This document shows, in pieces, positions 3,910-36,553 of a DNA stretch of 64,000 nt. This DNA comes from a virus. The translations under genes were made by a program, and so were the position numbers. A model generated the notes under the pieces. The model made no database searches. It was not told the origin of the DNA and saw only the letters and a program-made list of their open reading frames with translations. The stretch spans positions 28,896-92,895 of the IMG/VR virus record IMGVR_UViG_3300022188_000229. One strand, given 5' to 3'. How positions within the stretch are numbered: position 1 is the first letter of the stretch; the number at the start of each line of letters is the position of its first letter.

Positions 3910-6900
3910 ATGCTATTTATAGATAGTTTTCAAGAAAAAATTTGGAAGGATAAGTATCAGTACGGAGATGAGACTTATGAAGATTTCTGTCACCGTATAG
4001 CGTATACTATCTTTGCCAAAGATGAACACAAAGCTAAACAATTAAAAGAGTCTATTGAGGGCTTTAGGACTTTATTTGGTGGAAGAATTAATTCTAATAT
4101 AGGTATACCAGAGCAAGGACTAACTCTCTTCAATTGTTTTATTGAGGCAACAGTCAAAGACCCTGATTCATTAGAAGGTATCATGGATATGGTAACCAAG
4201 TATGCTCTCACATTAAAGACTGAGGGTGGAGTAGGTTTCTGTGCTAACTTTTTAAGACCGGCAAATACTTTGATTAGGAAGATAGGTGTTACTACCCCTG
4301 GGGCAATCAAGTTCCTAGAGATATTTGATAAGGTATCAGAAGTTATTACTTCAGGCAGTGTATCTAAGAAAGATAGTATACAGGGCGTTCCAACTAAGAA
4401 AAGCATCCGTAAGGGTGCTACCATGGTAACTATGAGCGCCAACCACCCAGATATAGAGGATTTTATTACAGCTAAATCTATACCTAATAAGCTTACCAAG
4501 ATGAATATGTCTGTACTAATTTCAGATGCATTTATGTATGCTGTAGACAATGAGTTAGATTGGAATTTGTGGTTTCCAGACATAAGCCATGATAAGTATG
4601 ACAAAGAATGGGATGGGGATTTTGAAAAATGGGCAGGGAAAGGTTACCCTTGTGTGACATATAAAACTGTAAAAGCTAATTATCTTTGGGAATTATTACT
4701 TAAGTCTAGTTATTGTGTCCCAGGTACGTTAGAATTACCTGCCTATCATAATAATAACCCAACAGATATAAGTATAACACACCTACACAAGATGGTGCAG
4801 AATGGTGAGGATATTCAGGTTCTTTCTATTAATAAGGATACTTTAAAATTAGAAAAGAAAAGAGTTACTAATTCGGTTTGTACAGGAGAAAATGAACTAT
4901 TAAATATCACTACTAGTTCTAATTTACAATATAAATGTACCGGTGAGCATAAATTGTTTGGTATGTCTACGGGAGCCCCTTTATATGAAACTATGGCTAA
5001 AGACTTTGTTGTAGATGATTACATAGCTACTGTAAATAAAACTACGGTTGAAGACGAGAACTTCTGTGTTGATGATGATTGGGAAGTATTTACTGGCATG
5101 ATTTTAGGAGACGGCAGTGTAAGACATGGGCAAATAAGAATTGCAGTACACATAGACCAGGTTGAGGAGGTGCTACCGTTAGCAAATAGAATAGCTGAAA
5201 GATATAATAGAGAAGTAAAATTATATTATGATAAAAGATCAAATAATTGGGCAGAGCTTAGTATACATTCTACCAAGTTGAGCACTGATTTAGAAGCCTT
5301 TATGTATCAATCTAAATTTGAAGGACAAAGTACTTCTATTAAAGAAATACCTAATTACTTATTTACTACTATTAATTTAAGAAGTGTTAGAAATTTTCTA
5401 TCAGGATTCTTTAGTGCAGACGGCTGTATTAACGGGCAGAAGACTACTTATTATTCTAAACACGATCATATAGCTATTGGTATACAGAGATTACTTCTTA
5501 GAGTTGGAGTTATTAGTAGAAAATATAAAGTTAACCATAAGGAACTTAAAGTGTTTGGATTTCGTGTAGACATGGATATGAACAACTCTGTTAAGTTACT
5601 AAAAGAAATACCTAAATTTTTGATAGAATCTAAGGTTAATAGAGACTTCTATGAGACCGTTAACGAATATAAAGCTCCTATAGGGATTATGGCTTATGAT
5701 GAAATAAAATCTTTTTCTAATAAAGCAAAATTACATAGAGAAAATAGAAGAACTGGTAAACAAAATTTTCCAGAAAAATACCAACACTTATTTGATTCAA
5801 ATGTGGTACATGAGTCTATAGTTGATATATCTTCTGGAGGTACTGTAAAAACATATGATATAACAGTTGAAGATAATGAAAATTTTATTTGTGTGGATGG
5901 AGGATTATATCATAATTGCCGCAACGAACCTGGAATTCTTTTTATAGACACTATTCGTAGTATGGACAATATTAAGTATCTTACTAGTTCCATACAGGCT
6001 AGTAACCCATGCGGGGAAGTGATGGGAAACACTGGTATAGTAGAGCACAAAGGTCAACTCTTTGAGCTTGGTGATGTTTGTAACTTAGGTTCTTTGGTTC
6101 TACCTTATTACTATGATATGAGTACCGAGAAGTTTAATTTTGAGGAATTCAAAAAAGATATAACTATTATGGTAGAGGCTCTGGATAATGTTATAGAGAT
6201 ATCAGACTACCCATTGGATATGTATGAGCAGGCTGCTAAGATGAAACGTAAAATCGGTCTTGGAGTAGCAGGTATCGGATCTCTTTTTATGATGATGGGT
6301 GTAAAGTACGGTAGCGACGAGAGTATTAAAATTACAGAAGAAATTTTGTCTATTTTAGCTAACACATCTTACCAAGCTTCTGCTCTTTTAGCTAAAGAAA
6401 AAGGTCCTTTCCCACTATACGACGAAAAACTATTGGAGGACGGTTATGTAAAGAATGGAGGTGTTCTGACTGAAGATACTTTAGCAATTGTTAAGAAGCA
6501 TGGGCTTAGACACTCAGCTACAATGGCTATTGCACCTAACGGTACCTTATCTATTCTAGCAGGTAATGTCTCTGGAGGTCTGGAACCTGTATTTTCACCT
6601 GAGTTCACTAGATGGAATAGGATAGAAGGTAAGAAATTAGGCTTTACTTATCCCAAGATCCATAAAGGTGAATGGTTTGAGACAGATTATTTTAAGGAAG
6701 AACTAATAGCTGATGAACCTATTTTGGTTTCTACAGATGGTAAGTATAGAATTGATAATAATCAAGGTCTTTGTAAAGAAGTAACTATTAGGGACTATGG
6801 GTATAACCAAGCATTAGAGTATGGTAAGATAGAATTTACTACTGCCATGGGTCTTTCAGTACAGGAGCACTTCAATATCTTGAGTGTGTTCGCTAAATAT

Positions 6901-7650
6901 ATTGATTTGAGTTGTAGCAAAACTGTAAATCTACCAGCAGATATTACCTTTGAAGATTTTAAGGCGCTGTATGGTAAGATTCATAGCCAGGGTATTAAAG
7001 GCTGCACTACTTATAGAGCAGGGACTTCTATAGCTGTTCTAGAGGTAAAGAAGGAAGAGAAGGATAGAACTATCAAAGCTCAACAGAAAGAGTTTTTAGA
7101 GGCGTTTAGAGGCCACGAGAATGGAGACATTATGCGTGATGTAGTTAAGCTACCAGAAGAGTACCCAAGTATGGGATATGTAATTAGAGCAGAGAAGAAA
7201 AAATGGTATTTACATGTGGCTTTTAAGAATGAAGCTAAGACTAAACCTTTTGCTATTTTTGTAAGCACTAATGATCAGTCCCCTACTCTTATTACTAACA
7301 ATGCAATTGAGGCTCTAGAGAAATTAGCTAGAAAGCATAGACTCGGCGGTAGGCGTTTAGAAGAAGTTGGTAAGAAGTATGCACGACAACCTAATTCTGT
7401 TAAGGTAGCCCGTATGCTGGGTTACCTGTTAAGGCATAATGTGCCTATGCTAGATATAGTTAAGGCATTAGATAATGTCGAGGATGCTCATGTTGGAACT
7501 TTTGTTTTTAGAATCAAGAAATTTCTTATGCAGTTCATCACTGAGCCTGTAGATTTAGGTATCACTTGCAATGAATGTGGAGGAGTAGACGTAATTCTTC
7601 AAGAAGGGTGCACATTGTGCCGCTCCTGCGGTTCAAGTAAATGTTCTTAA
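3910..7650 (+). CDS. nrdJ: Class II (adenosylcobalamin-dependent) ribonucleotide reductase containing an intein
   Basis: LFNCF, GGVG, NPCGE, CNLGS, IAPNGTLS, SKTVNLP, KGCTTYR, and a C-terminal Zn ribbon ending GSSKCS. Confidence 0.92.
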   Translation: MLFIDSFQEKIWKDKYQYGDETYEDFCHRIAYTIFAKDEHKAKQLKESIEGFRTLFGGRINSNIGIPEQGLTLFNCFIEATVKDPDSLEGIMDMVTKYALTLKTEGGVGFCANFLRPANTLIRKIGVTTPGAIKFLEIFDKVSEVITSGSVSKKDSIQGVPTKKSIRKGATMVTMSANHPDIEDFITAKSIPNKLTKMNMSVLISDAFMYAVDNELDWNLWFPDISHDKYDKEWDGDFEKWAGKGYPCVTYKTVKANYLWELLLKSSYCVPGTLELPAYHNNNPTDISITHLHKMVQNGEDIQVLSINKDTLKLEKKRVTNSVCTGENELLNITTSSNLQYKCTGEHKLFGMSTGAPLYETMAKDFVVDDYIATVNKTTVEDENFCVDDDWEVFTGMILGDGSVRHGQIRIAVHIDQVEEVLPLANRIAERYNREVKLYYDKRSNNWAELSIHSTKLSTDLEAFMYQSKFEGQSTSIKEIPNYLFTTINLRSVRNFLSGFFSADGCINGQKTTYYSKHDHIAIGIQRLLLRVGVISRKYKVNHKELKVFGFRVDMDMNNSVKLLKEIPKFLIESKVNRDFYETVNEYKAPIGIMAYDEIKSFSNKAKLHRENRRTGKQNFPEKYQHLFDSNVVHESIVDISSGGTVKTYDITVEDNENFICVDGGLYHNCRNEPGILFIDTIRSMDNIKYLTSSIQASNPCGEVMGNTGIVEHKGQLFELGDVCNLGSLVLPYYYDMSTEKFNFEEFKKDITIMVEALDNVIEISDYPLDMYEQAAKMKRKIGLGVAGIGSLFMMMGVKYGSDESIKITEEILSILANTSYQASALLAKEKGPFPLYDEKLLEDGYVKNGGVLTEDTLAIVKKHGLRHSATMAIAPNGTLSILAGNVSGGLEPVFSPEFTRWNRIEGKKLGFTYPKIHKGEWFETDYFKEELIADEPILVSTDGKYRIDNNQGLCKEVTIRDYGYNQALEYGKIEFTTAMGLSVQEHFNILSVFAKYIDLSCSKTVNLPADITFEDFKALYGKIHSQGIKGCTTYRAGTSIAVLEVKKEEKDRTIKAQQKEFLEAFRGHENGDIMRDVVKLPEEYPSMGYVIRAEKKKWYLHVAFKNEAKTKPFAIFVSTNDQSPTLITNNAIEALEKLARKHRLGGRRLEEVGKKYARQPNSVKVARMLGYLLRHNVPMLDIVKALDNVEDAHVGTFVFRIKKFLMQFITEPVDLGITCNECGGVDVILQEGCTLCRSCGSSKCS
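4714..5916 (+). mobile_element. Intein (~401 aa) with LAGLIDADG homing endonuclease, inside nrdJ
   Basis: Starts CVPG; block B CTGEHKLF; GMILGDG and GFFSADG endonuclease motifs; block F TYDITVEDNENF; ends HN with +1 Cys. Confidence 0.93.
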
Positions 7651-24305: not shown

Positions 24306-24884
24306 ATGAATCTAACTGACGTTCAAGATGAGGCAGCTAAATGTAATATGTGTGGACTAGCAAAGAACAGGCAAGTACCTGTATTTGCTAAAGGGAATCC
24401 TTACTCTAAGATATTAATTTGTGGTATGTGTCCTGGTCCTGATGAGAATCATCCTAAGAATGAGATGGGGTGGCCCTTTGTGGGTAGATCAGGGAAGCTT
24501 TTGGATCATATATTAGAGGATACTACTTTAACACAGCGTGATGTATACATAACTAATATAGTTAAATGTTTCTTGAAACCAGGACTTCGGTTAGATGAAA
24601 GATGTATAGATAGATGTTTACCTTATTTAATAGAACAGATAGGGGCTATTGAACCTAAGGTTGTTCTAGCTTTAGGAGCAGATGCCGGCAGAGCGTTGTT
24701 AAATAAACCAATGTCAACCTCACTGTCTTCTATGAGAGGTAAAAGATATAAGTTCACAGAAAGCATAAGTATTATAGTAACATATCATCCCTCGTATTTT
24801 TTACGGCAGGGTGGTAGAAAACACGACCATTATAATAGAATAATAGACGATATAGAATGGGTAAAGGAGATCATTAATAGATGA
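24306..24884 (+). CDS. Uracil-DNA glycosylase family 4 (Fe-S)
   Basis: CNMC, GMCPG, PFVGRSG, TNIVKC, TYHPS. Confidence 0.92.
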   Translation: MNLTDVQDEAAKCNMCGLAKNRQVPVFAKGNPYSKILICGMCPGPDENHPKNEMGWPFVGRSGKLLDHILEDTTLTQRDVYITNIVKCFLKPGLRLDERCIDRCLPYLIEQIGAIEPKVVLALGADAGRALLNKPMSTSLSSMRGKRYKFTESISIIVTYHPSYFLRQGGRKHDHYNRIIDDIEWVKEIINR

Positions 24885-30820: not shown

Positions 30821-32767
30821 ATGTCAAAGAATAACCATACAGTACATCCAGAACTTATTAAGACAGTTGACTATGAGATTTTAGTACTAGGGCTTCCTAA
30901 GAAGGACTTAGAAGATTTACTGACACATTTTGTGGCAGAAAGGGGTAAGATTTCAAGGAGTTTGTACGAAGATTTTCTAATTGCTAACTGTATTGCTAAT
31001 CTAAATCAGTTTATGGCCCACATTAATACAGCGACTATATCTGGAGAAATTGATTTATTAAAGTTACGCCAAGAGATTACTGAGGTAGTATTAACTCATA
31101 ACCCATTACTCCATCCTGAAAAGATAGTTATTAACAGGAACCAGGTATTAAAGCTTCTTGTTGGTAAGATTAATGATGACGCTGATGGTATTCTACTTAA
31201 TGAAAATATTTATTGGAACAAGTCTTACTATGATACTGAGGGGAATTATAAACCAATTTCTTTACAAGATAACTCTAAGAATCATATGGAAAAACCCCCT
31301 ACTAAAAAGACTGAGTCTCCGAAAGGGGATACAGGTAAGAAAGATATTTCAGAGTTAGAGTGGAAGCCTGTACAGGTCTGGTGGACAAGATTAAATGAGT
31401 ACGTTGTCGTTAAACAATACTCTTTAGAGAACATTGATCATATATTGAGGCAGCGTTACTTTCATAATAGCACCAGCTTTAATACATACATAGTGTCTAA
31501 TTGTATCGTAGATGTAGAAGATATTTATGCGCTTATCGATGGCATGGGAGCTAATGTTGATCCTAATAAAGTAATTAGGGAACTATTTGCCTTGTGTGAG
31601 GGTGCTAACGAGGGGTTAAATTTTACTAGAGCTAAAGAACTTCAAGAACCTGAAGAAGGTGGAGATGACAGTTCTAAACTTCGTACTAATTCTCCGGCAC
31701 AGAGGGCTTATACTAAGGGCTATGGGAAGAAGAAATCGCAGAAGAAGATGCCTACGTTTAAAGATGTACCTAAAGCAGACCTATTAAAACTTTCTGATAA
31801 CATGAAAGTAGCTTTGGTTGGGCAGGATGAAGCAGTAGATAAATTAGGTGAAGCTATTAAGAGAGCAAGTGTAGGACTGAAAGACCCTATTAAACCTATT
31901 GGATCGTTTCTTTTTGCAGGAAGGACTGGCTGTGGCAAGACTCTTGCAAGTAAAGTACTCGCTGATGAACTTATTAGGACTAGAAAGAATAGAATAGTGA
32001 TCGATTGTTCTGAGTACACGAATGATCATGAGTATGCTAAATTGATAGGGGCACCAGCAGGATACATTGGTCATGATGATGGTGGAGTGTTAACTAACGC
32101 CGTTGCAGAAACACCTTTTGCAGTTGTAGTGTTTGATGAAATTGAAAAAGCCAGTTCTAAGGTATATGATTTACTACTACAGGTTCTTGATGAAGGACGT
32201 TTAACTGATGGTAAGGGGCGTGCAGTATCCTTTAGAGATACAATCATTGTGCTTACCTCTAATATTGGTGTCCAAGAAGTAGACGCAGTGACAAAGACTA
32301 TTGGTTTTGGAGATGTCGCTATTCTTACTGAAGATAAAAAAAGAGGCGCACTCAATAAAGCATTAAAGAAAAAATTTAAACCTGAGTTCCTAAATAGAAT
32401 TGATTCTGTAGTACATTTTAAGGACCTATCTGACGAGGACTATATGAAAATTATAGACATTGAATTGTATAAGCTCGGAGATAACCTGAAATCCAATGAC
32501 ACAGAGTATAAAGATGTTACATTGAACTTTGATAAGAAGATAAGAAAATTGATCTTTAAAGAGGGAGTAGATGAAAAGTTTGGTGCAAGACCTATTAAGA
32601 GAGCTATAGAACAAAACATCTCTTCTGAGGTCGCCGGTCTTCTTCTTGAAGGTAATTTTTCTCCTTATGTAACCATTAGTGTATCAGAGAAAGCAGGTAA
32701 GGTAGTACTTACAACTAAAGACAAAGAGAAAGAACAGGAGATTAATCTTCTTGTTAATACAAAATAA
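30821..32767 (+). CDS. ClpA/ClpB-type AAA+ ATPase (second AAA module only) with a novel N-terminus
   Basis: VGQDEAV, GRTGCGKT, LIGAPAGYIG, FDEIEKA, GRLTD, PEFLNRID, GARP. Confidence 0.9.
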   Translation: MSKNNHTVHPELIKTVDYEILVLGLPKKDLEDLLTHFVAERGKISRSLYEDFLIANCIANLNQFMAHINTATISGEIDLLKLRQEITEVVLTHNPLLHPEKIVINRNQVLKLLVGKINDDADGILLNENIYWNKSYYDTEGNYKPISLQDNSKNHMEKPPTKKTESPKGDTGKKDISELEWKPVQVWWTRLNEYVVVKQYSLENIDHILRQRYFHNSTSFNTYIVSNCIVDVEDIYALIDGMGANVDPNKVIRELFALCEGANEGLNFTRAKELQEPEEGGDDSSKLRTNSPAQRAYTKGYGKKKSQKKMPTFKDVPKADLLKLSDNMKVALVGQDEAVDKLGEAIKRASVGLKDPIKPIGSFLFAGRTGCGKTLASKVLADELIRTRKNRIVIDCSEYTNDHEYAKLIGAPAGYIGHDDGGVLTNAVAETPFAVVVFDEIEKASSKVYDLLLQVLDEGRLTDGKGRAVSFRDTIIVLTSNIGVQEVDAVTKTIGFGDVAILTEDKKRGALNKALKKKFKPEFLNRIDSVVHFKDLSDEDYMKIIDIELYKLGDNLKSNDTEYKDVTLNFDKKIRKLIFKEGVDEKFGARPIKRAIEQNISSEVAGLLLEGNFSPYVTISVSEKAGKVVLTTKDKEKEQEINLLVNTK

Positions 32768-32779
32768 AGAGGAACTATA

Positions 32780-33265
32780 ATGTCATTAAGACGAACTACA
32801 TATGATGTTGGTGCAATGTTGGGGGCTTTTAGGGTCCCCTACAATGTGACCAGTGTAATAAAAAATATTACTACACAGTATGTTATTGAAGATTTTGGTG
32901 TAGTGATAAGTGTAATTAATCCTGGCGACTACGGGATGATTAATGAGCGTTTAGATACAGTATTAAAGGGATATAGAAAGTTATTTATCTCTAGTAATGA
33001 TAATTTAAACGATAAACGTTATGAGATAATTTGGTCCCTCATGAGATCAGGTTATATGAAATGGTTGAGGTATACATACCCGGCACAATTCGTTAATATA
33101 GTGGACACAGATAATTTAGGCGGACGTATAATAGATGAACGTATAGCTGTATGGGGCAATGCCCCTAAGTATAGATATCTAGTAGCAGATAATATAGAAG
33201 CAAAGAGCGCAGGGTTTAGGCAGTTACTTAGCCGTGACCCCTCATTCTTTGACTACATGCCTTAA
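32780..33265 (+). CDS. Hypothetical protein
   Basis: RBS GAGG; in operon. Confidence 0.6.
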   Translation: MSLRRTTYDVGAMLGAFRVPYNVTSVIKNITTQYVIEDFGVVISVINPGDYGMINERLDTVLKGYRKLFISSNDNLNDKRYEIIWSLMRSGYMKWLRYTYPAQFVNIVDTDNLGGRIIDERIAVWGNAPKYRYLVADNIEAKSAGFRQLLSRDPSFFDYMP

Positions 33266-33275
33266 GGAGGTTAAA

Positions 33276-33452
33276 ATGTTTACAACTAATGGAAGGGCTG
33301 GCAAAAGAGCCAGTAAAGAAAGAGCTAGCGTTAAAGGGAAAGAGTTTTCTTGTACTGCGTGTGGCGCAAGAAAACGTGTAGCTAATGTAGAGTTTGGAGA
33401 AGAGATAGTGTGCGAGTGCGGCAAACCCATGGTGGAGAGTTATGAAGAGTAA
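33276..33452 (+). CDS. Small Zn-ribbon protein
   Basis: CTACG and CECG; RBS AGGAGG. Confidence 0.65.
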   Translation: MFTTNGRAGKRASKERASVKGKEFSCTACGARKRVANVEFGEEIVCECGKPMVESYEE

Positions 33453-33804
33453 GTTCTTTTCTGGTGTATCTTCTAAGATAATAGCTTGGGCTACAGTGTT
33501 GGCAACAATAGTTGCTATTGTTACTGCGATGGCTATGTTTGATGATAGATATGCTAGAGCTGAAGATTCAAAGGAAACACACGAAGAGATAATAGAATCT
33601 ATAAAATTAATGAACATTAACATGAAGATAAATGGACTACAGAGCCAAAGGATCATGTTGAAAATGAATAAAAGAGATTTAATGTTAAAACAAGCAGAAA
33701 ACCCTGAAGATCCTACTATTAGATGTCTATTAGAAGATGCTAATGAAGATATGGCTACTATTAATAGACGCATAGGTGATTTAGAGAATGAGCAACTTAG
33801 ATAA
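33442..33804 (+). CDS. Protein with N-terminal transmembrane helix and coiled coil
   Basis: IIAWATVLATIVAIVTAMAMF. Confidence 0.6.
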   Translation: MKSKFFSGVSSKIIAWATVLATIVAIVTAMAMFDDRYARAEDSKETHEEIIESIKLMNINMKINGLQSQRIMLKMNKRDLMLKQAENPEDPTIRCLLEDANEDMATINRRIGDLENEQLR

Positions 33805-33818
33805 AGGAGCACCGAACT

Positions 33819-34565
33819 ATGGTAGAAGAGACCACTAACGGAGTAACTAATGGGGATGTGAAAACGGAAGAACCTTCTCTTGTTAGATTATTGGATACAA
33901 CTTATCCATTACTAGCTAGATTTAGAGAGCTGTGTCCTGGTACGTATAAACATTCTCAAGCACTGGCTTCGATGATTGAAGGTGTTAGTTTAGCACTAGG
34001 GTTAGATACAGATCTACTAAAATTAGCAGCTACATATCATGATATAGGTAAGACCTTTAATCCTAAGTATTTTACAGAGAATCAGATGGAAGATGAAGAC
34101 ACTCATGAAGGCTTAGACCCAAAAATTAGTTATGAGATTATAACTAGACATGTGTCAGATAGTGTTATTATTCTATTAAATGATAGTAATTTTCCACGTA
34201 AGGTTATTGAGATTATTAGTCAACACCACGGTAAGAATGTACTAAAATATTTCTTTAAGAAATCTGGAAAAGATGTTGAGGATTTTTTTAGATATAAGAC
34301 CACTAAACCCACTTGCATAGAGTCAGCTATTCTAATGATTTGTGATGCTGTTGAAGCTACAAGCAGGTCCCAGGTACAGGCGGGTAAGTTTGATCCTAGC
34401 AAAGTAATTGAAAGTACAATTAATGGTTTAATAAATGATGGGCAGCTAGATGAAGTTTACATGAGGCTGGGTGATCTAAAGAAAGTTAAAGTAGCTTTAG
34501 GTAAAGAACTTGAAGGTACTTATCAGAAACGAGTAGATTATGAAGAGGTAGAGGTGAGTAAATGA
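33819..34565 (+). CDS. Stand-alone HDIG phosphohydrolase resembling the HD domain of PgpH/7TM-HD proteins
   Basis: PGTYKHS, YHDIGK..NPKYFTENQ, QHHG, MICDAVEA.SRS. Confidence 0.85.
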   Translation: MVEETTNGVTNGDVKTEEPSLVRLLDTTYPLLARFRELCPGTYKHSQALASMIEGVSLALGLDTDLLKLAATYHDIGKTFNPKYFTENQMEDEDTHEGLDPKISYEIITRHVSDSVIILLNDSNFPRKVIEIISQHHGKNVLKYFFKKSGKDVEDFFRYKTTKPTCIESAILMICDAVEATSRSQVQAGKFDPSKVIESTINGLINDGQLDEVYMRLGDLKKVKVALGKELEGTYQKRVDYEEVEVSK

Positions 34566-35023
34566 CAGAGGCTGATGGAGTAATAATACTTGTAGTTGCT
34601 GTAGTGATCTGTATGTTTGGTCTTATATTTGGTGTTCTTAGCCTTCTAAAGCATTTAAAGTTACGTCGTGAGTATGATAATTTATTTGTTTATAATGAAA
34701 ACCTAATGGAAAAATTTAATAAGACTATTCACCAGAAAAAAAGTTCTGAAGTACGGCTTGGAAAGATAGGAGAGAACCTAGCTCCTTTTACTAAGTGCTG
34801 GCCTTGGGACCCTAATGATTTTAGATTTCTTGGTTCACCCATAGATGGTATGCAGTTCACAGAGGAAATGATTTATTTAGTAGAGATAAAGACCGGCAAG
34901 AGTCGGCTAAGTAAAAAGCAAGCTCGTTGTAGAGAGCTAGTAAAAGCAGGTAAAGTAGCATTTGTTTCATGCCGTATAGGTGAAGATGAGATAGAGATAA
35001 AAGAGACTAATTTTTTAAAGTAA
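34562..35023 (+). CDS. Membrane-anchored Holliday-junction-resolvase-like endonuclease
   Basis: GKIGENLAPF, FRFLGSPIDG, VEIKTG; N-terminal TM helix. Confidence 0.8.
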   Translation: MTEADGVIILVVAVVICMFGLIFGVLSLLKHLKLRREYDNLFVYNENLMEKFNKTIHQKKSSEVRLGKIGENLAPFTKCWPWDPNDFRFLGSPIDGMQFTEEMIYLVEIKTGKSRLSKKQARCRELVKAGKVAFVSCRIGEDEIEIKETNFLK

Positions 35024-35049
35024 CCTCAATATAGATAAGGAGAATTATT

Positions 35050-35379
35050 ATGATAGAAATAACAAAAGATGCAATTAAAAATATACTGGAGTATTTTAAT
35101 GGTAAAGATGTAACACCGGTTAGAATATTTATGAACAGTAGTGGCTGAGGTGGCGGTGGCTTAGCTTTAGCTCTGGATGAGTTAAAAGAAAATGATTATA
35201 AAATAGAAGACTCAGGACTAACTTTAGTCGCTGACAAAGACTTCTTAGAGGAAACTGGTACGATCATTATTGATTGGACTGGTATGGGATTTAATTTAAA
35301 ATCCGAGAAACAGCTAGTCAAAGCTACGGGAGATTGTGGTGGGTGTGCTAGTGGTTCTTGTGGAGACGAGGAGAAATAA
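35050..35379 (+). CDS. IscA/HesB-like selenoprotein (109 aa; UGA at codon 33 read as Sec), not in the ORF track
   Basis: RBS AAGGAG. MIEITKDAIKNILEYFNGKDVTPVRIFMNSSG-U-GGGGLALALDE...DWTGMGF...CGGCASGSC. TGA at 35146-35148 occupies the family's Cys/Sec position. Read-through fills the gap to the next ATG at 35381. Confidence 0.88.
35165..35188 (+). promoter_or_regulatory. Putative bacterial SECIS hairpin
   Basis: TTTAGCTC-TGGAT-GAGTTAAA: 8-bp stem, G at loop position 2, loop begins about 25 nt after the UGA. Confidence 0.75.
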
Positions 35380-35380
35380 T

Positions 35381-35716
35381 ATGAAAATAAGTATTTTCCA
35401 ATTAATTAGTTGGGGGTTTCTAGTAAAGAGTGAGATCAACAAGGCTTATGCTGATGATAATACCATTAGTGCTAAAGAGATGCTATCTATGTATAAAACT
35501 CTCTCACAGGAGATCAAACTTCCTGTAGATGAGAAAGTACAGAACGCACTCGATCTAGTGAGTGAGCTGATTGATGAATTAGCTCTAATTACAGATGACA
35601 ATAAAGTATCTGTGGCTGAGATTGTAAGCTTGGCTGAGAAGATTTGTGAACGAATGGGCATCGATCTAGACAAAACTAGTTTTGATATCCCAGAGATTGG
35701 TAAGACAGAAGAGTAA
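35381..35716 (+). CDS. Hypothetical protein with internal DD-N-x-(I/V)S repeat
   Basis: ATG at 35381 after GAGGAG; ADDNTISAKE and TDDNKVSVAE. Confidence 0.6.
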   Translation: MKISIFQLISWGFLVKSEINKAYADDNTISAKEMLSMYKTLSQEIKLPVDEKVQNALDLVSELIDELALITDDNKVSVAEIVSLAEKICERMGIDLDKTSFDIPEIGKTEE

Positions 35717-35732
35717 CATATAGGAGAAAACT

Positions 35733-35987
35733 ATGATAGAACAATACGCAGAAGAACTAACAAAGGTTATTATGATGATGGGAGTTAACTTAACTTACGC
35801 AGCATTATGTATATTTCTAGGTATTTTATCTATGGTAGTGGGTTATAAAATATTTGATAAACTAACACCCTTCGATACAGGCAAAGAGCTTGCTAATGAA
35901 AACAATGCAGTTGCTATTTTTAATGGTGCTATTGTATTGGGGGTGGGTCTATGTTCAGGCATAATTATAGGACTTGCCTGCAACTAG
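35733..35987 (+). CDS. DUF350-like membrane protein
   Basis: Two TM helices; FDKLTPFD..KEL...N.AVAI. Confidence 0.75.
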   Translation: MIEQYAEELTKVIMMMGVNLTYAALCIFLGILSMVVGYKIFDKLTPFDTGKELANENNAVAIFNGAIVLGVGLCSGIIIGLACN

Positions 35988-36553
35988 TTATTGTTTTAGT
36001 AGTGGTGTTACTGGCACAGATATGTAGTGCTTCTTTATCAATAAAAAAACCCATAGATAGATTTAGTAATAAGTATGATGTTCATTTTAAGAAGGCATCA
36101 AAAAGATATTTTAGCGTAGGGTTAGACTACCGATGGTTTAAAGCTCAAAGTTTTGCCGAAAGTAATCTCAACCCTACAGCTGTTTCTCCTGTAGGTGCTA
36201 AGGGAATCATGCAAGTTATGGACCCTACCTATGCAGAGATTAAAAGAAAGACAGGGATTACAGGTAATGTATTTAATGCAAGATGGAATATAATGGCTGG
36301 AATCTACTACAATTCCTACCTGTATGGGCAATGGAGATCACCTCGTCCTGAACTAGATCGCTTAGCACTTATGTTTGCTTCCTATAATGCTGGTCTAGGC
36401 AATATTCTAAAAGCACAACAATTATGTAAGAAAGATTGCAACCTTTGGAATTCTATTAAGGTTAGTGGTCCAGATGTCCGGAGTTGGAAAGAAGAAGAGA
36501 CCATTCACTACGTTCATAAAATATTAAAACTTATGGGCTATGAAGGGTACTAA
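35951..36553 (+). CDS. SLT-family lytic transglycosylase (start uncertain)
   Basis: AESNLNP.AVS.VGAKGIMQVM, ASYNAG, ETIHYV; N-terminal hydrophobic anchor. Confidence 0.9.
   Translation: MFRHNYRTCLQLVIVLVVVLLAQICSASLSIKKPIDRFSNKYDVHFKKASKRYFSVGLDYRWFKAQSFAESNLNPTAVSPVGAKGIMQVMDPTYAEIKRKTGITGNVFNARWNIMAGIYYNSYLYGQWRSPRPELDRLALMFASYNAGLGNILKAQQLCKKDCNLWNSIKVSGPDVRSWKEEETIHYVHKILKLMGYEGY

What the first reader, a model, noticed from the sequence alone, without database searches (positions are those of the whole stretch)
35050..35379. Phage-encoded HesB-like selenoprotein with SECIS hairpin
Seen: RBS, ATG, an in-frame TGA in SG-U-GG...LALALDE, a correctly spaced hairpin with a G-containing loop, and a Cys-rich tail. 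The gene exactly fills an unannotated gap. Established: HesB-like proteins with G-U-GG...ALDE are a known selenoprotein family in Deltaproteobacteria and Clostridia. Phage selenoproteins are rarely reported. No selA, selB, selD or tRNA-Sec is visible here, so the phage would rely on host Sec machinery. The protein might support Fe-S supply for the radical SAM and UDG4 enzymes. The window thus appears to use both UGA and UAG recoding locally.
Basis: partly seen in the sequence, partly recalled or inferred. Interest (0 to 1): 0.82.

Follow-up and report, generated by a model that had tools for sequence, protein, structure and literature searches.

The report
Phage-encoded HesB-like selenoprotein gene
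A large bacteriophage carries a small iron-sulfur-carrier-like gene whose internal UGA "stop" is almost certainly read as selenocysteine with the host's machinery; I found no description of a selenoprotein gene in a bacterial virus in the papers I could search.

Summary
Window 35050-35379 (+) is a 109-codon gene with one in-frame TGA (35146-35148, codon 33). It scores above the curated cut-off of NCBIfam NF038090 (IscA_HesB_Se). The TGA aligns with the first cluster-ligand Cys of IscA/SufA.

Of 136 distinct homologous DNA stretches, 121 have TGA at this codon and 15 have Cys. The TGA forms share a hairpin 20 nt downstream (GGCUC-UGGAU-GAGCC). It is fully paired in 117 of 121 TGA forms but in 1 of 15 Cys forms, and synonymous sites within it are frozen. 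The window keeps this hairpin (35166-35186) with a compensatory G-C to A-U change.

The record is a jumbo-phage fragment (DNA polymerase, RNR, tail sheath, 20 tRNAs). Four metagenome contigs syntenic with it carry the same gene with the same TGA, and dN/dS after the TGA is 0.17-0.30. TGA is otherwise an ordinary stop here.

The 92.9 kb held contain no selA, selB, selD or tRNA-Sec, so host machinery is implied. The host is unidentified; the nearest bacterial homologues are in Desulfobacterales. The protein family and mechanism are known. The phage setting is what is new. The Fe-S role is inferred.

The parts
35037..35042 (+). Shine-Dalgarno AAGGAG, 7 nt before the start codon
   Evidence: read directly from the sequence
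35050..35379 (+). HesB/IscA-like selenoprotein gene: 109 codons plus TAA, with Sec at codon 33
   Evidence: NF038090 90.2 bits against cut-off 85; PF01521 29.7 against 26.3; AlphaFold model matches SufA and IscA folds
35146..35148 (+). In-frame UGA read as selenocysteine (U33), at the position of the first cluster-ligand Cys of A-type carriers
   Evidence: 121 of 136 distinct homologous stretches have TGA here and the other 15 have TGT/TGC; aligned with the GGC*SG Cys of 1NWB, 2APN and E. coli IscA
35166..35186 (+). SECIS hairpin: arms 35166-35173 and 35179-35186, loop UGGAU 35174-35178; the 5 bp shared with the family are 35169-35173 / 35179-35183
   Evidence: RNAalifold on 68 TGA forms predicts exactly this helix; 99.1% of cells are paired and 2 pairs show compensatory changes, one of them in the window itself; 117 of 121 Sec forms are fully paired against 1 of 15 Cys forms; synonymous sites are frozen
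35335..35361 (+). C-terminal Cys cluster: C96 (35335-35337), C99 (35344-35346), C104 (35359-35361)
   Evidence: C96 is invariant and C104 is at least 90% conserved in alignment A3; C96 aligns with Cys99 of E. coli IscA; the tail is disordered in the model, as in IscA crystal structures

Best explanation
This is a functional phage gene for an A-type (IscA/HesB-fold) carrier-like selenoprotein. The gene probably came from Desulfobacterota-type bacteria, an inference from where its homologues lie, and it has since been inherited within one clade of jumbo phages. During infection the mRNA is translated by host ribosomes. When the UGA at codon 33 reaches the A site, the hairpin 20 nt downstream (loop UGGAU) recruits the host's SelB-GTP-Sec-tRNA(Sec), and selenocysteine is inserted instead of termination. 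The phage record held supplies none of the Sec machinery. Sec33 sits where IscA/SufA have their first cluster-ligand cysteine. Together with C96 and C99 (and C104) of the flexible tail it would bind or hand over an Fe-S cluster, or carry out a selenol/thiol exchange.

Shown here: the gene, the Sec/Cys pairing, the conserved SECIS, the phage context, purifying selection after the UGA, and the fold. Inferred: actual Sec insertion, the identity and Sec competence of the host, and the biochemical role.
For: - Family membership: NF038090 90.2 bits, above the cut-off of 85.
- Sec/Cys pair: TGA in 121 and Cys in 15 of 136 distinct homologous stretches, and no other residue.
- SECIS: RNAalifold finds one helix, columns 24-28/34-38. 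99.1% of cells are paired, against 1-52% when the partner is slid by 1-3 columns. Compensatory changes are G-C to A-U in the window and L008, and C-G to U-A in three bacterial sequences, where it costs a Glu-to-Lys change.
- Third-position entropy is about 0 at codons 9, 10 and 12 after the TGA, against 1.5-1.9 bits in the flanks. The stem is broken in 14 of 15 Cys forms.
- Phage context: DNA polymerase, RNR, tail sheath and a virion protein; a virus record of 92.9 kb.
- L007, L008, L009 and L049, from other metagenomes, are syntenic over window 31280-36427, and each has the TGA.
- dN/dS downstream of the TGA is 0.17-0.30.
- TGA ends 17 of 143 ORFs, several in ATGA overlaps, including the HD gene two genes upstream. 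No other credible TGA read-through frame exists in the record.
- Fold: SufA 2D2A and IscA 1R94, 1S98 and 1X0G.
- selB is above its cut-off in 5 of 5 bacterial genomes that carry a homologue.
Against: - No experiment: Sec insertion is inferred from sequence alone.
- The host is unknown. A CRISPR-spacer-type search of 401 Desulfobacterales genomes gave nothing.
- Only about 34% of the phage genome is held, so a phage tRNA(UCA) or phage Sec genes elsewhere cannot be excluded.
- The window's stem is weaker than the bacterial one (A-U and G-U in place of two G-C pairs), and alone it is not better than shuffled sequence.
- One syntenic relative (L008) has a frameshift in the 3' part of the gene.
- One relative has Cys (P0002) and one lacks the five-residue motif (P0004), so the Sec is dispensable in some lineages.
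- In L049 only 3 of the 5 pairs are kept.
Confidence: 0.8

Rival explanations
1. The UGA is read through without SelB, either by a phage-encoded opal suppressor tRNA in the unsampled two thirds of the genome or by stage-specific TGA recoding of the code-4 or code-25 kind. Position 33 would then be Trp, Gly or Cys rather than Sec.
For: The same phage encodes an amber suppressor tRNA(CUA) although TAG also ends 32 ORFs. Suppressor tRNAs therefore coexist with ordinary use of the same stop codon in this genome. A JGI gene caller read the relative P0003 with TGA as Trp. Only about 34% of the genome is held.
Against: No tRNA with anticodon UCA occurs in 92.9 kb. No other gene needs TGA read-through. 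TGA ends genes in ATGA overlaps next to this gene. The SECIS hairpin, its frozen synonymous sites and the compensatory change in the phage lineage would be pointless for a suppressor tRNA. Homologues have only Sec or Cys here, never Trp or Gly.
Confidence: 0.08
2. The TGA terminates translation. The gene would then be a decaying remnant of a captured bacterial selenoprotein gene in a phage whose host cannot insert Sec, and only a 32-residue peptide, or nothing useful, is made.
For: The host's Sec competence is unproven. L008 has a frameshift, P0004 a deletion of the motif and P0002 a Cys codon, as expected if the Sec codon is sometimes a liability. The window's stem is weakened.
Against: dN/dS of 0.17-0.30 downstream of the TGA in four phage comparisons, at synonymous divergence of 0.41-0.67. 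The frame stays open and the Cys tail is kept. The TGA and hairpin are retained in four syntenic relatives from separate metagenomes. The stem change in the window is compensatory, not disruptive.
Confidence: 0.06
3. The gene is not viral. It would lie on bacterial DNA joined to phage DNA by misassembly or misclassification.
For: The record is a metagenome-derived IMG/VR contig. Close relatives are binned into cellular MAGs.
Against: The gene is flanked on both sides, on the same strand and without gaps, by phage genes: tail sheath, protease, resolvase-like nuclease, endolysin-like SLT protein and virion proteins. The same order recurs in four independent contigs. GC is uniform at about 36%. 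The phage-type sequences are separated from all bacterial ones by a long supported branch.
Confidence: 0.02

Closest known systems
Bacterial IscA/HesB-family selenoproteins (NCBIfam NF038090 IscA_HesB_Se; the 'HesB-like' selenoprotein family of Zhang et al. 2006, PMC1794560)
   Same: Score above the family cut-off. Sec at the first-ligand position in a G-U-GG...ALDE context. A C-terminal Cys cluster. The same SECIS hairpin at the same distance, with an identical GCU-CUG-GAU-GAG core. Sec/Cys alternation among homologues.
   Different: It is encoded by a jumbo phage rather than a cell. The motif is UGGGG-LALALDE where bacteria have UGGPS-LAMALDE. The phage clade sits on its own long branch at only 40-54% identity to bacterial members. 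The stem is AU-richer.
HesB-like selenoprotein model TIGR01911 (HesB_rel_seleno; motif UxGP in the 2026 review PMC13188914)
   Same: The same fold and the same idea: Sec replaces the first Cys of an A-type carrier.
   Different: The window protein scores 27.8 bits against a cut-off of 66.35. It belongs to the sister model NF038090, not to this one.
Virus-encoded selenoproteins of poxviruses (molluscum contagiosum GPx1-like, fowlpox GPx4-like; PMC8310308)
   Same: A virus carries a captured cellular selenoprotein gene and relies wholly on the host's Sec machinery. In fowlpox the SECIS also lies inside the coding region.
   Different: Those are eukaryotic viruses with a eukaryotic SECIS, SBP2 and eEFSec, and the enzymes are peroxidases. 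Here a bacterial-type SECIS lies directly after the UGA in a phage, and the protein is an Fe-S-carrier-like protein.
Stop-codon recoding in phages (code 15 TAG to Gln, code 4 TGA to Trp, with phage suppressor tRNAs; PMC9523058) and predicted 'tRNA-SeC' genes in huge phages (PMC10747093)
   Same: A phage gene needs a stop codon to be read as sense. This genome also carries a tRNA(CUA).
   Different: Here a single codon in a single gene is redefined by a cis-acting RNA hairpin, not by a change of code. The phage-genome papers I read describe no selenoprotein gene with a SECIS.

Membership tests
NCBIfam NF038090 IscA_HesB_Se | Whole-protein score at or above the curated cut-off (85 bits) | tested here: met
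   90.2 bits, E 8.3e-26, residues 1-98 on profile positions 1-101 of 101
NCBIfam NF038090 IscA_HesB_Se | Sec (UGA) or Cys at the first conserved Cys position | tested here: met
   TGA at codon 33; 121 TGA and 15 Cys among 136 distinct homologous stretches
NCBIfam NF038090 IscA_HesB_Se | IscA/HesB fold | tested here: met
   AlphaFold2 mean pLDDT 80.3. Best PDB matches are SufA 2D2A, IscA 1R94, 1S98 and 1X0G, probability 1.00, TM 0.58-0.67
Bacterial selenoprotein gene (SelB/SECIS-dependent) | Hairpin in the coding sequence shortly after the UGA, with a small apical loop containing G (PMC1088965). The 16-37 nt UGA-to-loop spacing criterion is recalled from Zhang & Gladyshev 2005 and I did not re-read it. 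| tested here: met
   8-bp stem, loop UGGAU, loop starting 25 nt after the UGA; homologous to the family's conserved helix
Bacterial selenoprotein gene (SelB/SECIS-dependent) | The hairpin is tied to the UGA: kept in Sec forms and lost in Cys forms | tested here: met
   5 of 5 pairs in 117 of 121 Sec forms; mean 2.0 of 5 in the 15 Cys forms; synonymous-site entropy near 0 in the stem-loop
Bacterial selenoprotein gene (SelB/SECIS-dependent) | Sec is actually inserted, and the translating cell has selA, selB, selD and tRNA-Sec | not testable with these tools
   The host is unidentified. The phage record lacks all four. Five of five bacterial carriers of homologues have selB.
NCBIfam TIGR01911 HesB_rel_seleno | Score at or above the cut-off (66.35 bits) | tested here: not met
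   27.8 bits
Canonical A-type Fe-S carriers IscA/SufA/ErpA (TIGR02011, TIGR01997, NF010147) | Equivalog score, and a C-terminal C-G-C ligand pair | tested here: not met
   22.9, 20.9 and 21.9 bits against cut-offs of 150.6, 136.2 and 117. The tail is C-G-G-C...C rather than C-x-C. It shares the fold and the first-ligand position but is not one of these proteins.
Bacteriophage gene | Embedded among phage hallmark genes, with conserved synteny in related phages | tested here: met

The most novel reading that the evidence does not exclude
This may be the first documented selenoprotein family of bacteriophages. A clade of jumbo phages has kept a UGA plus bacterial SECIS under selection for a long time, so part of its proteome depends on hijacked host SelA, SelB, SelD and tRNA(Sec). 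The same genome also redefines UAG with its own tRNA(CUA), giving two independent stop-codon redefinitions in one virus. If so, the gene would restrict the phage's productive hosts to Sec-decoding bacteria. It would also mark them, and it would make expression of the protein selenium-dependent.
Probability: 0.55. Interest if true: 0.75.

Novelty: new member of a known kind. Interest (0 to 1): 0.62.

Why it matters
Selenoproteins are catalogued for bacteria, archaea, eukaryotes and two poxviruses. The 2026 review of the prokaryotic selenoproteome does not mention phages or viruses at all. A marine survey found that selenoprotein families have no or very few viral sequences. A paper on huge phages inferred Sec use only from predicted tRNA genes.

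A phage gene with a selected UGA and SECIS shows that phages can exploit the host's Sec-insertion system. It offers a host-range marker, because the host must decode Sec. It is also a compact natural test case for how a foreign SECIS co-evolves with the host's SelB.

In practice, standard gene callers split or miss this gene. The database holds it as 63-71-residue fragments or as a code-4 'Trp' protein. Phage selenoproteins are therefore probably under-counted.

Tried and rejected
I could not fetch the DNA around P0002 (Cys form), P0005 and P0006 (14-kb and 45-kb contigs), nor check whether the SECIS decays in the phage Cys form.
- **IMG/VR pattern scans** with the protein and with an alignment found no other viral copy.
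- **GenBank phages**: tblastn against 50,697 records found none.
- **More distant IMG/VR relatives**, found through the protease at 52% identity or less, lack the gene within 10 kb on either side. Their five best records, one of them complete at 296 kb, lack it in the whole record. These five records have no tRNA-Sec above the cut-off. Two of the three highest-scoring near-hits are tRNA-Leu and tRNA-Ser.
- **Host search**: 20 kb of the window against 401 Desulfobacterales genomes gave only the homologous hesB and protease genes plus a few 25-33-nt matches. The five I fetched have no repeats around them, so they are not CRISPR spacers. An 87%-identical protease contig sits in a Woesearchaeota MAG and a 50% one in a Saccharibacteria MAG. 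I read these as misbinned phage DNA, not as hosts.
- **A global TGA reassignment (code 4 or 25)** is rejected.
- **The odd Rfam-only tRNA** (59670-59749, minus strand) as a possible tRNA-Sec is rejected. Its anticodon is GUA and it scores 27.8 bits on the tRNA-Sec model.
- **The minimum-energy fold of the wider region**, which pairs the UGA itself, is not conserved and was set aside.
- **Accession LNFX** was found in no paper, and the cluster look-up gave no sample names.

Full report
**1. What is in the sequence**

Window 35050-35379 (+) begins with an ATG that lies 7 nt after AAGGAG. The frame is open to a TAA except for one TGA at 35146-35148, which is codon 33. Read through, it gives a 109-residue protein with the context ...FMNSSG-U-GGGGLALALDE... 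and a tail DCGGCASGSCGDEEK.

Under table 11 the locus appears only as 32- and 31-residue fragments. It accounts for a 312-nt ORF-free gap in a record that is otherwise 91% coding.

**2. What the protein is**

- Pfam places it in PF01521 Fe-S_biosyn, at 29.7 bits against a cut-off of 26.3.
- NCBIfam places it above the curated cut-off of NF038090 IscA_HesB_Se (90.2 against 85 bits). It falls well below the cut-offs of TIGR01911 and of the IscA, SufA and ErpA equivalogs.
- By sequence, U33 aligns with the first conserved Cys of solved A-type carriers (1NWB, 2APN, E. coli IscA 1R94), and C96 aligns with IscA Cys99.
- An AlphaFold2 model built from a 37-sequence alignment has mean pLDDT 80.3 with a disordered Cys tail. 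Its best PDB matches are SufA (2D2A) and IscA (1R94, 1S98, and the [2Fe-2S]-bound 1X0G), all at probability 1.00.

**3. Is the TGA a Sec codon?**

The protein database holds the relatives in exactly the forms expected for a mis-called selenoprotein:
- one with Cys (P0002);
- one with 'W', a code-4 gene call (P0003);
- three fragments that start at the Met just after the TGA (P0005-P0007);
- one with the five-residue motif deleted (P0004).

Scans of metagenome and genome contigs each found more than 450 relatives. In the 160 loci fetched there are 136 distinct stretches, of which 121 have TGA at the aligned codon and 15 have TGT or TGC. No other residue occurs there.

On 68 distinct TGA-bearing sequences, RNAalifold predicts a single helix at columns 24-28/34-38, counted from the U of the UGA. 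It reads GGCUC-UGGAU-GAGCC.
- The helix is formed in 99.1% of cells, against 1-52% when the 3' partner is slid by 1-3 columns.
- Two of the five pairs show compensatory changes. One is G-C to A-U in the window and its relative L008. The other is C-G to U-A in three bacterial sequences, where it costs a Glu-to-Lys change.
- Over all loci, 117 of 121 Sec forms have all five pairs. The 15 Cys forms average 2.0 pairs, and only one has all five.
- Third-codon-position entropy falls to 0-0.4 bits at codons 8-12 after the TGA, against 1.5-1.9 bits on either side.

This is the signature of a SECIS, and the window carries it. The arms are 35166-35173 and 35179-35186, the loop is UGGAU, and the GCU-CUG-GAU-GAG core is identical to the family's.

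Taken alone, the window hairpin is not significant (-7.6 kcal/mol, z -1.6). The argument rests on homology and on the association with TGA.

**4. Is TGA otherwise a stop here?**

Yes.
- A simple non-overlapping ORF set has 143 genes ending in TAA (94), TAG (32) or TGA (17).
- Several TGA stops sit in ATGA overlaps with the next gene, including the HD-domain gene two genes upstream.
- Treating TGA or TAG as sense does not lengthen any large ORF.
- No other frame in the 92.9 kb makes a credible TGA read-through gene.
- No tRNA has anticodon UCA.
- The one tRNA that ARAGORN missed (59670-59749, minus strand) has anticodon GUA.

**5. Is it a phage gene?**

- The window is bases 28896-92895 of a 92,895-base IMG/VR virus record that CheckV rates about 34% complete.
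- It encodes a DNA polymerase, a ribonucleotide reductase, a tail sheath, a virion structural protein and a Lon-like protease. It also encodes an SLT-type endolysin-like protein, clamp-loader, RNase HII, ligase, dCMP-deaminase and HSP20 homologues, a resolvase-like nuclease, Rad52 and RtcB, and 20 tRNAs.
- Four metagenome contigs (L007, L008, L009, L049) are collinear with window 31280-36427 at 38-91% protein identity. Each carries the gene with the TGA in the same place.
- Between these phages, dN/dS downstream of the TGA is 0.17-0.30, at synonymous divergence of 0.41-0.67. The part after the 'stop' is therefore translated and under selection.
- In a tree, the phage-type sequences are separated from 76 bacterial sequences by a supported long branch (0.61 changes per column, SH-aLRT 95). 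That points to an old capture, not a recent one.
- More distant phage relatives, at 52% protease identity or less, lack the gene.

**6. Where the Sec machinery comes from**

The record has no selA, selB or selD and no tRNA-Sec above the cut-off. Nor do five related phage records have a tRNA-Sec above the cut-off.

The nearest cellular homologues (40-54% identity) are almost all from Desulfobacterales, with 69 Sec and 9 Cys among them. Five of five such genomes tested have selB above its cut-off.

The SECIS lies inside the coding region directly after the UGA. That is the bacterial arrangement, as established for fdhF-type genes, so the host is a bacterium with SelB.

I could not identify the host. 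A spacer-type search in 401 Desulfobacterales genomes was empty. Co-binning of related contigs with Woesearchaeota and Saccharibacteria MAGs looks like misbinning of low-GC phage DNA.

**7. Mechanism and its limits**

The best reading is host SelB-dependent insertion of Sec at position 33 of an A-type-carrier-like protein. Sec33 together with C96, C99 and C104 would hold or transfer an Fe-S cluster, or exchange selenol and thiol groups.

A possible client is the phage's UDG-family enzyme (window 24387-24854, 102 bits). The 'radical SAM' match is below Pfam's cut-off. The function is inference only.

Variation within the phage clade shows that the Sec is not indispensable everywhere:
- a Cys form (P0002);
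- a motif deletion (P0004);
- a frameshifted copy (L008);
- a remodelled stem (L049).

**8. Novelty**

The protein family, the Sec/Cys alternation and even 'fossil' SECIS elements in Cys forms are described for bacteria (PMC1794560). What I could not find is any phage selenoprotein:
- The 2026 review of the prokaryotic selenoproteome has no occurrence of 'phage', 'virus' or 'viral'.
- Reviews of viral recoding list only the two poxvirus glutathione peroxidases.
- A marine survey states that the other families it examined, which included selenoprotein families, have no or very few viral sequences.
- A huge-phage study inferred Sec use only from predicted tRNA genes.

The library I searched is incomplete, so 'first' is not proven. 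Earlier notes of this scan describe HesB-like selenoproteins in Asgard archaea and a WOR-3 bacterium, none in a phage.

**9. Verdict**

The gene is a new member of a known selenoprotein family that uses the known bacterial mechanism. It is notable because it is carried and maintained by a bacteriophage lineage.

Noticed in passing
window 46658-47018 (-): A 76-nt tRNA with anticodon CUA (amber suppressor; ARAGORN labels it 'Pyl') lies directly after a 92-codon Pth2-like frame (MLKLYILVRNDLSTSQKAVQAGHALAEY...) that contains one in-frame TAG. TAG is otherwise a common stop in this genome (32 of 143 ORFs).
   Followed up: partly
window 59670-59749 (-): A twentieth tRNA is found only by Rfam (30.3 bits) and missed by ARAGORN. 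It has anticodon GUA (Tyr), a long variable arm and an irregular D-arm region. It is not tRNA-Sec.
   Followed up: partly
L008:5001-5533: The syntenic relative L008 keeps the TGA and the identical hairpin, but it has a frameshift after ...GMGFNL that removes the Cys tail. This is either a sequencing error or a decaying copy.
   Followed up: no
proteins P0002 and P0004 (no DNA available): Within the phage-type clade, one homologue has Cys in place of Sec and another lacks exactly the five residues [U/C]GGGG. This suggests repeated escape from Sec dependence.
   Followed up: no
L050:2047-2110: A Cys-form homologue keeps all five SECIS pairs, a 'fossil' SECIS that suggests a recent Sec-to-Cys conversion. 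L079 keeps four of the five.
   Followed up: no
L262 and L263 (genome contigs): A 5-kb contig with a protease 87% identical to the window's is binned in a 'Candidatus Woesearchaeota' MAG. A 50%-identical one is binned in a Saccharibacteria MAG. These are probably low-GC phage contigs misbinned into small-genome bins.
   Followed up: no
window 3910-7650 (+): The 1246-residue ribonucleotide reductase matches RNR profiles at residues 21-235 and 673-1245. About 440 residues between them are unmatched, which could be an intein or another inserted domain.
   Followed up: no
window 48943-50109 (-): A full-length RtcB RNA ligase (378.8 bits) sits inside the tRNA gene array. This fits tRNA repair or splicing by the phage.
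   Followed up: no
window 34562-35023 (+): The gene just upstream of the selenoprotein gene encodes a 153-residue protein with an N-terminal hydrophobic segment and an archaeal-Holliday-junction-resolvase-like endonuclease domain (PF10107, 65.5 bits). It is conserved in the syntenic phages.
   Followed up: no
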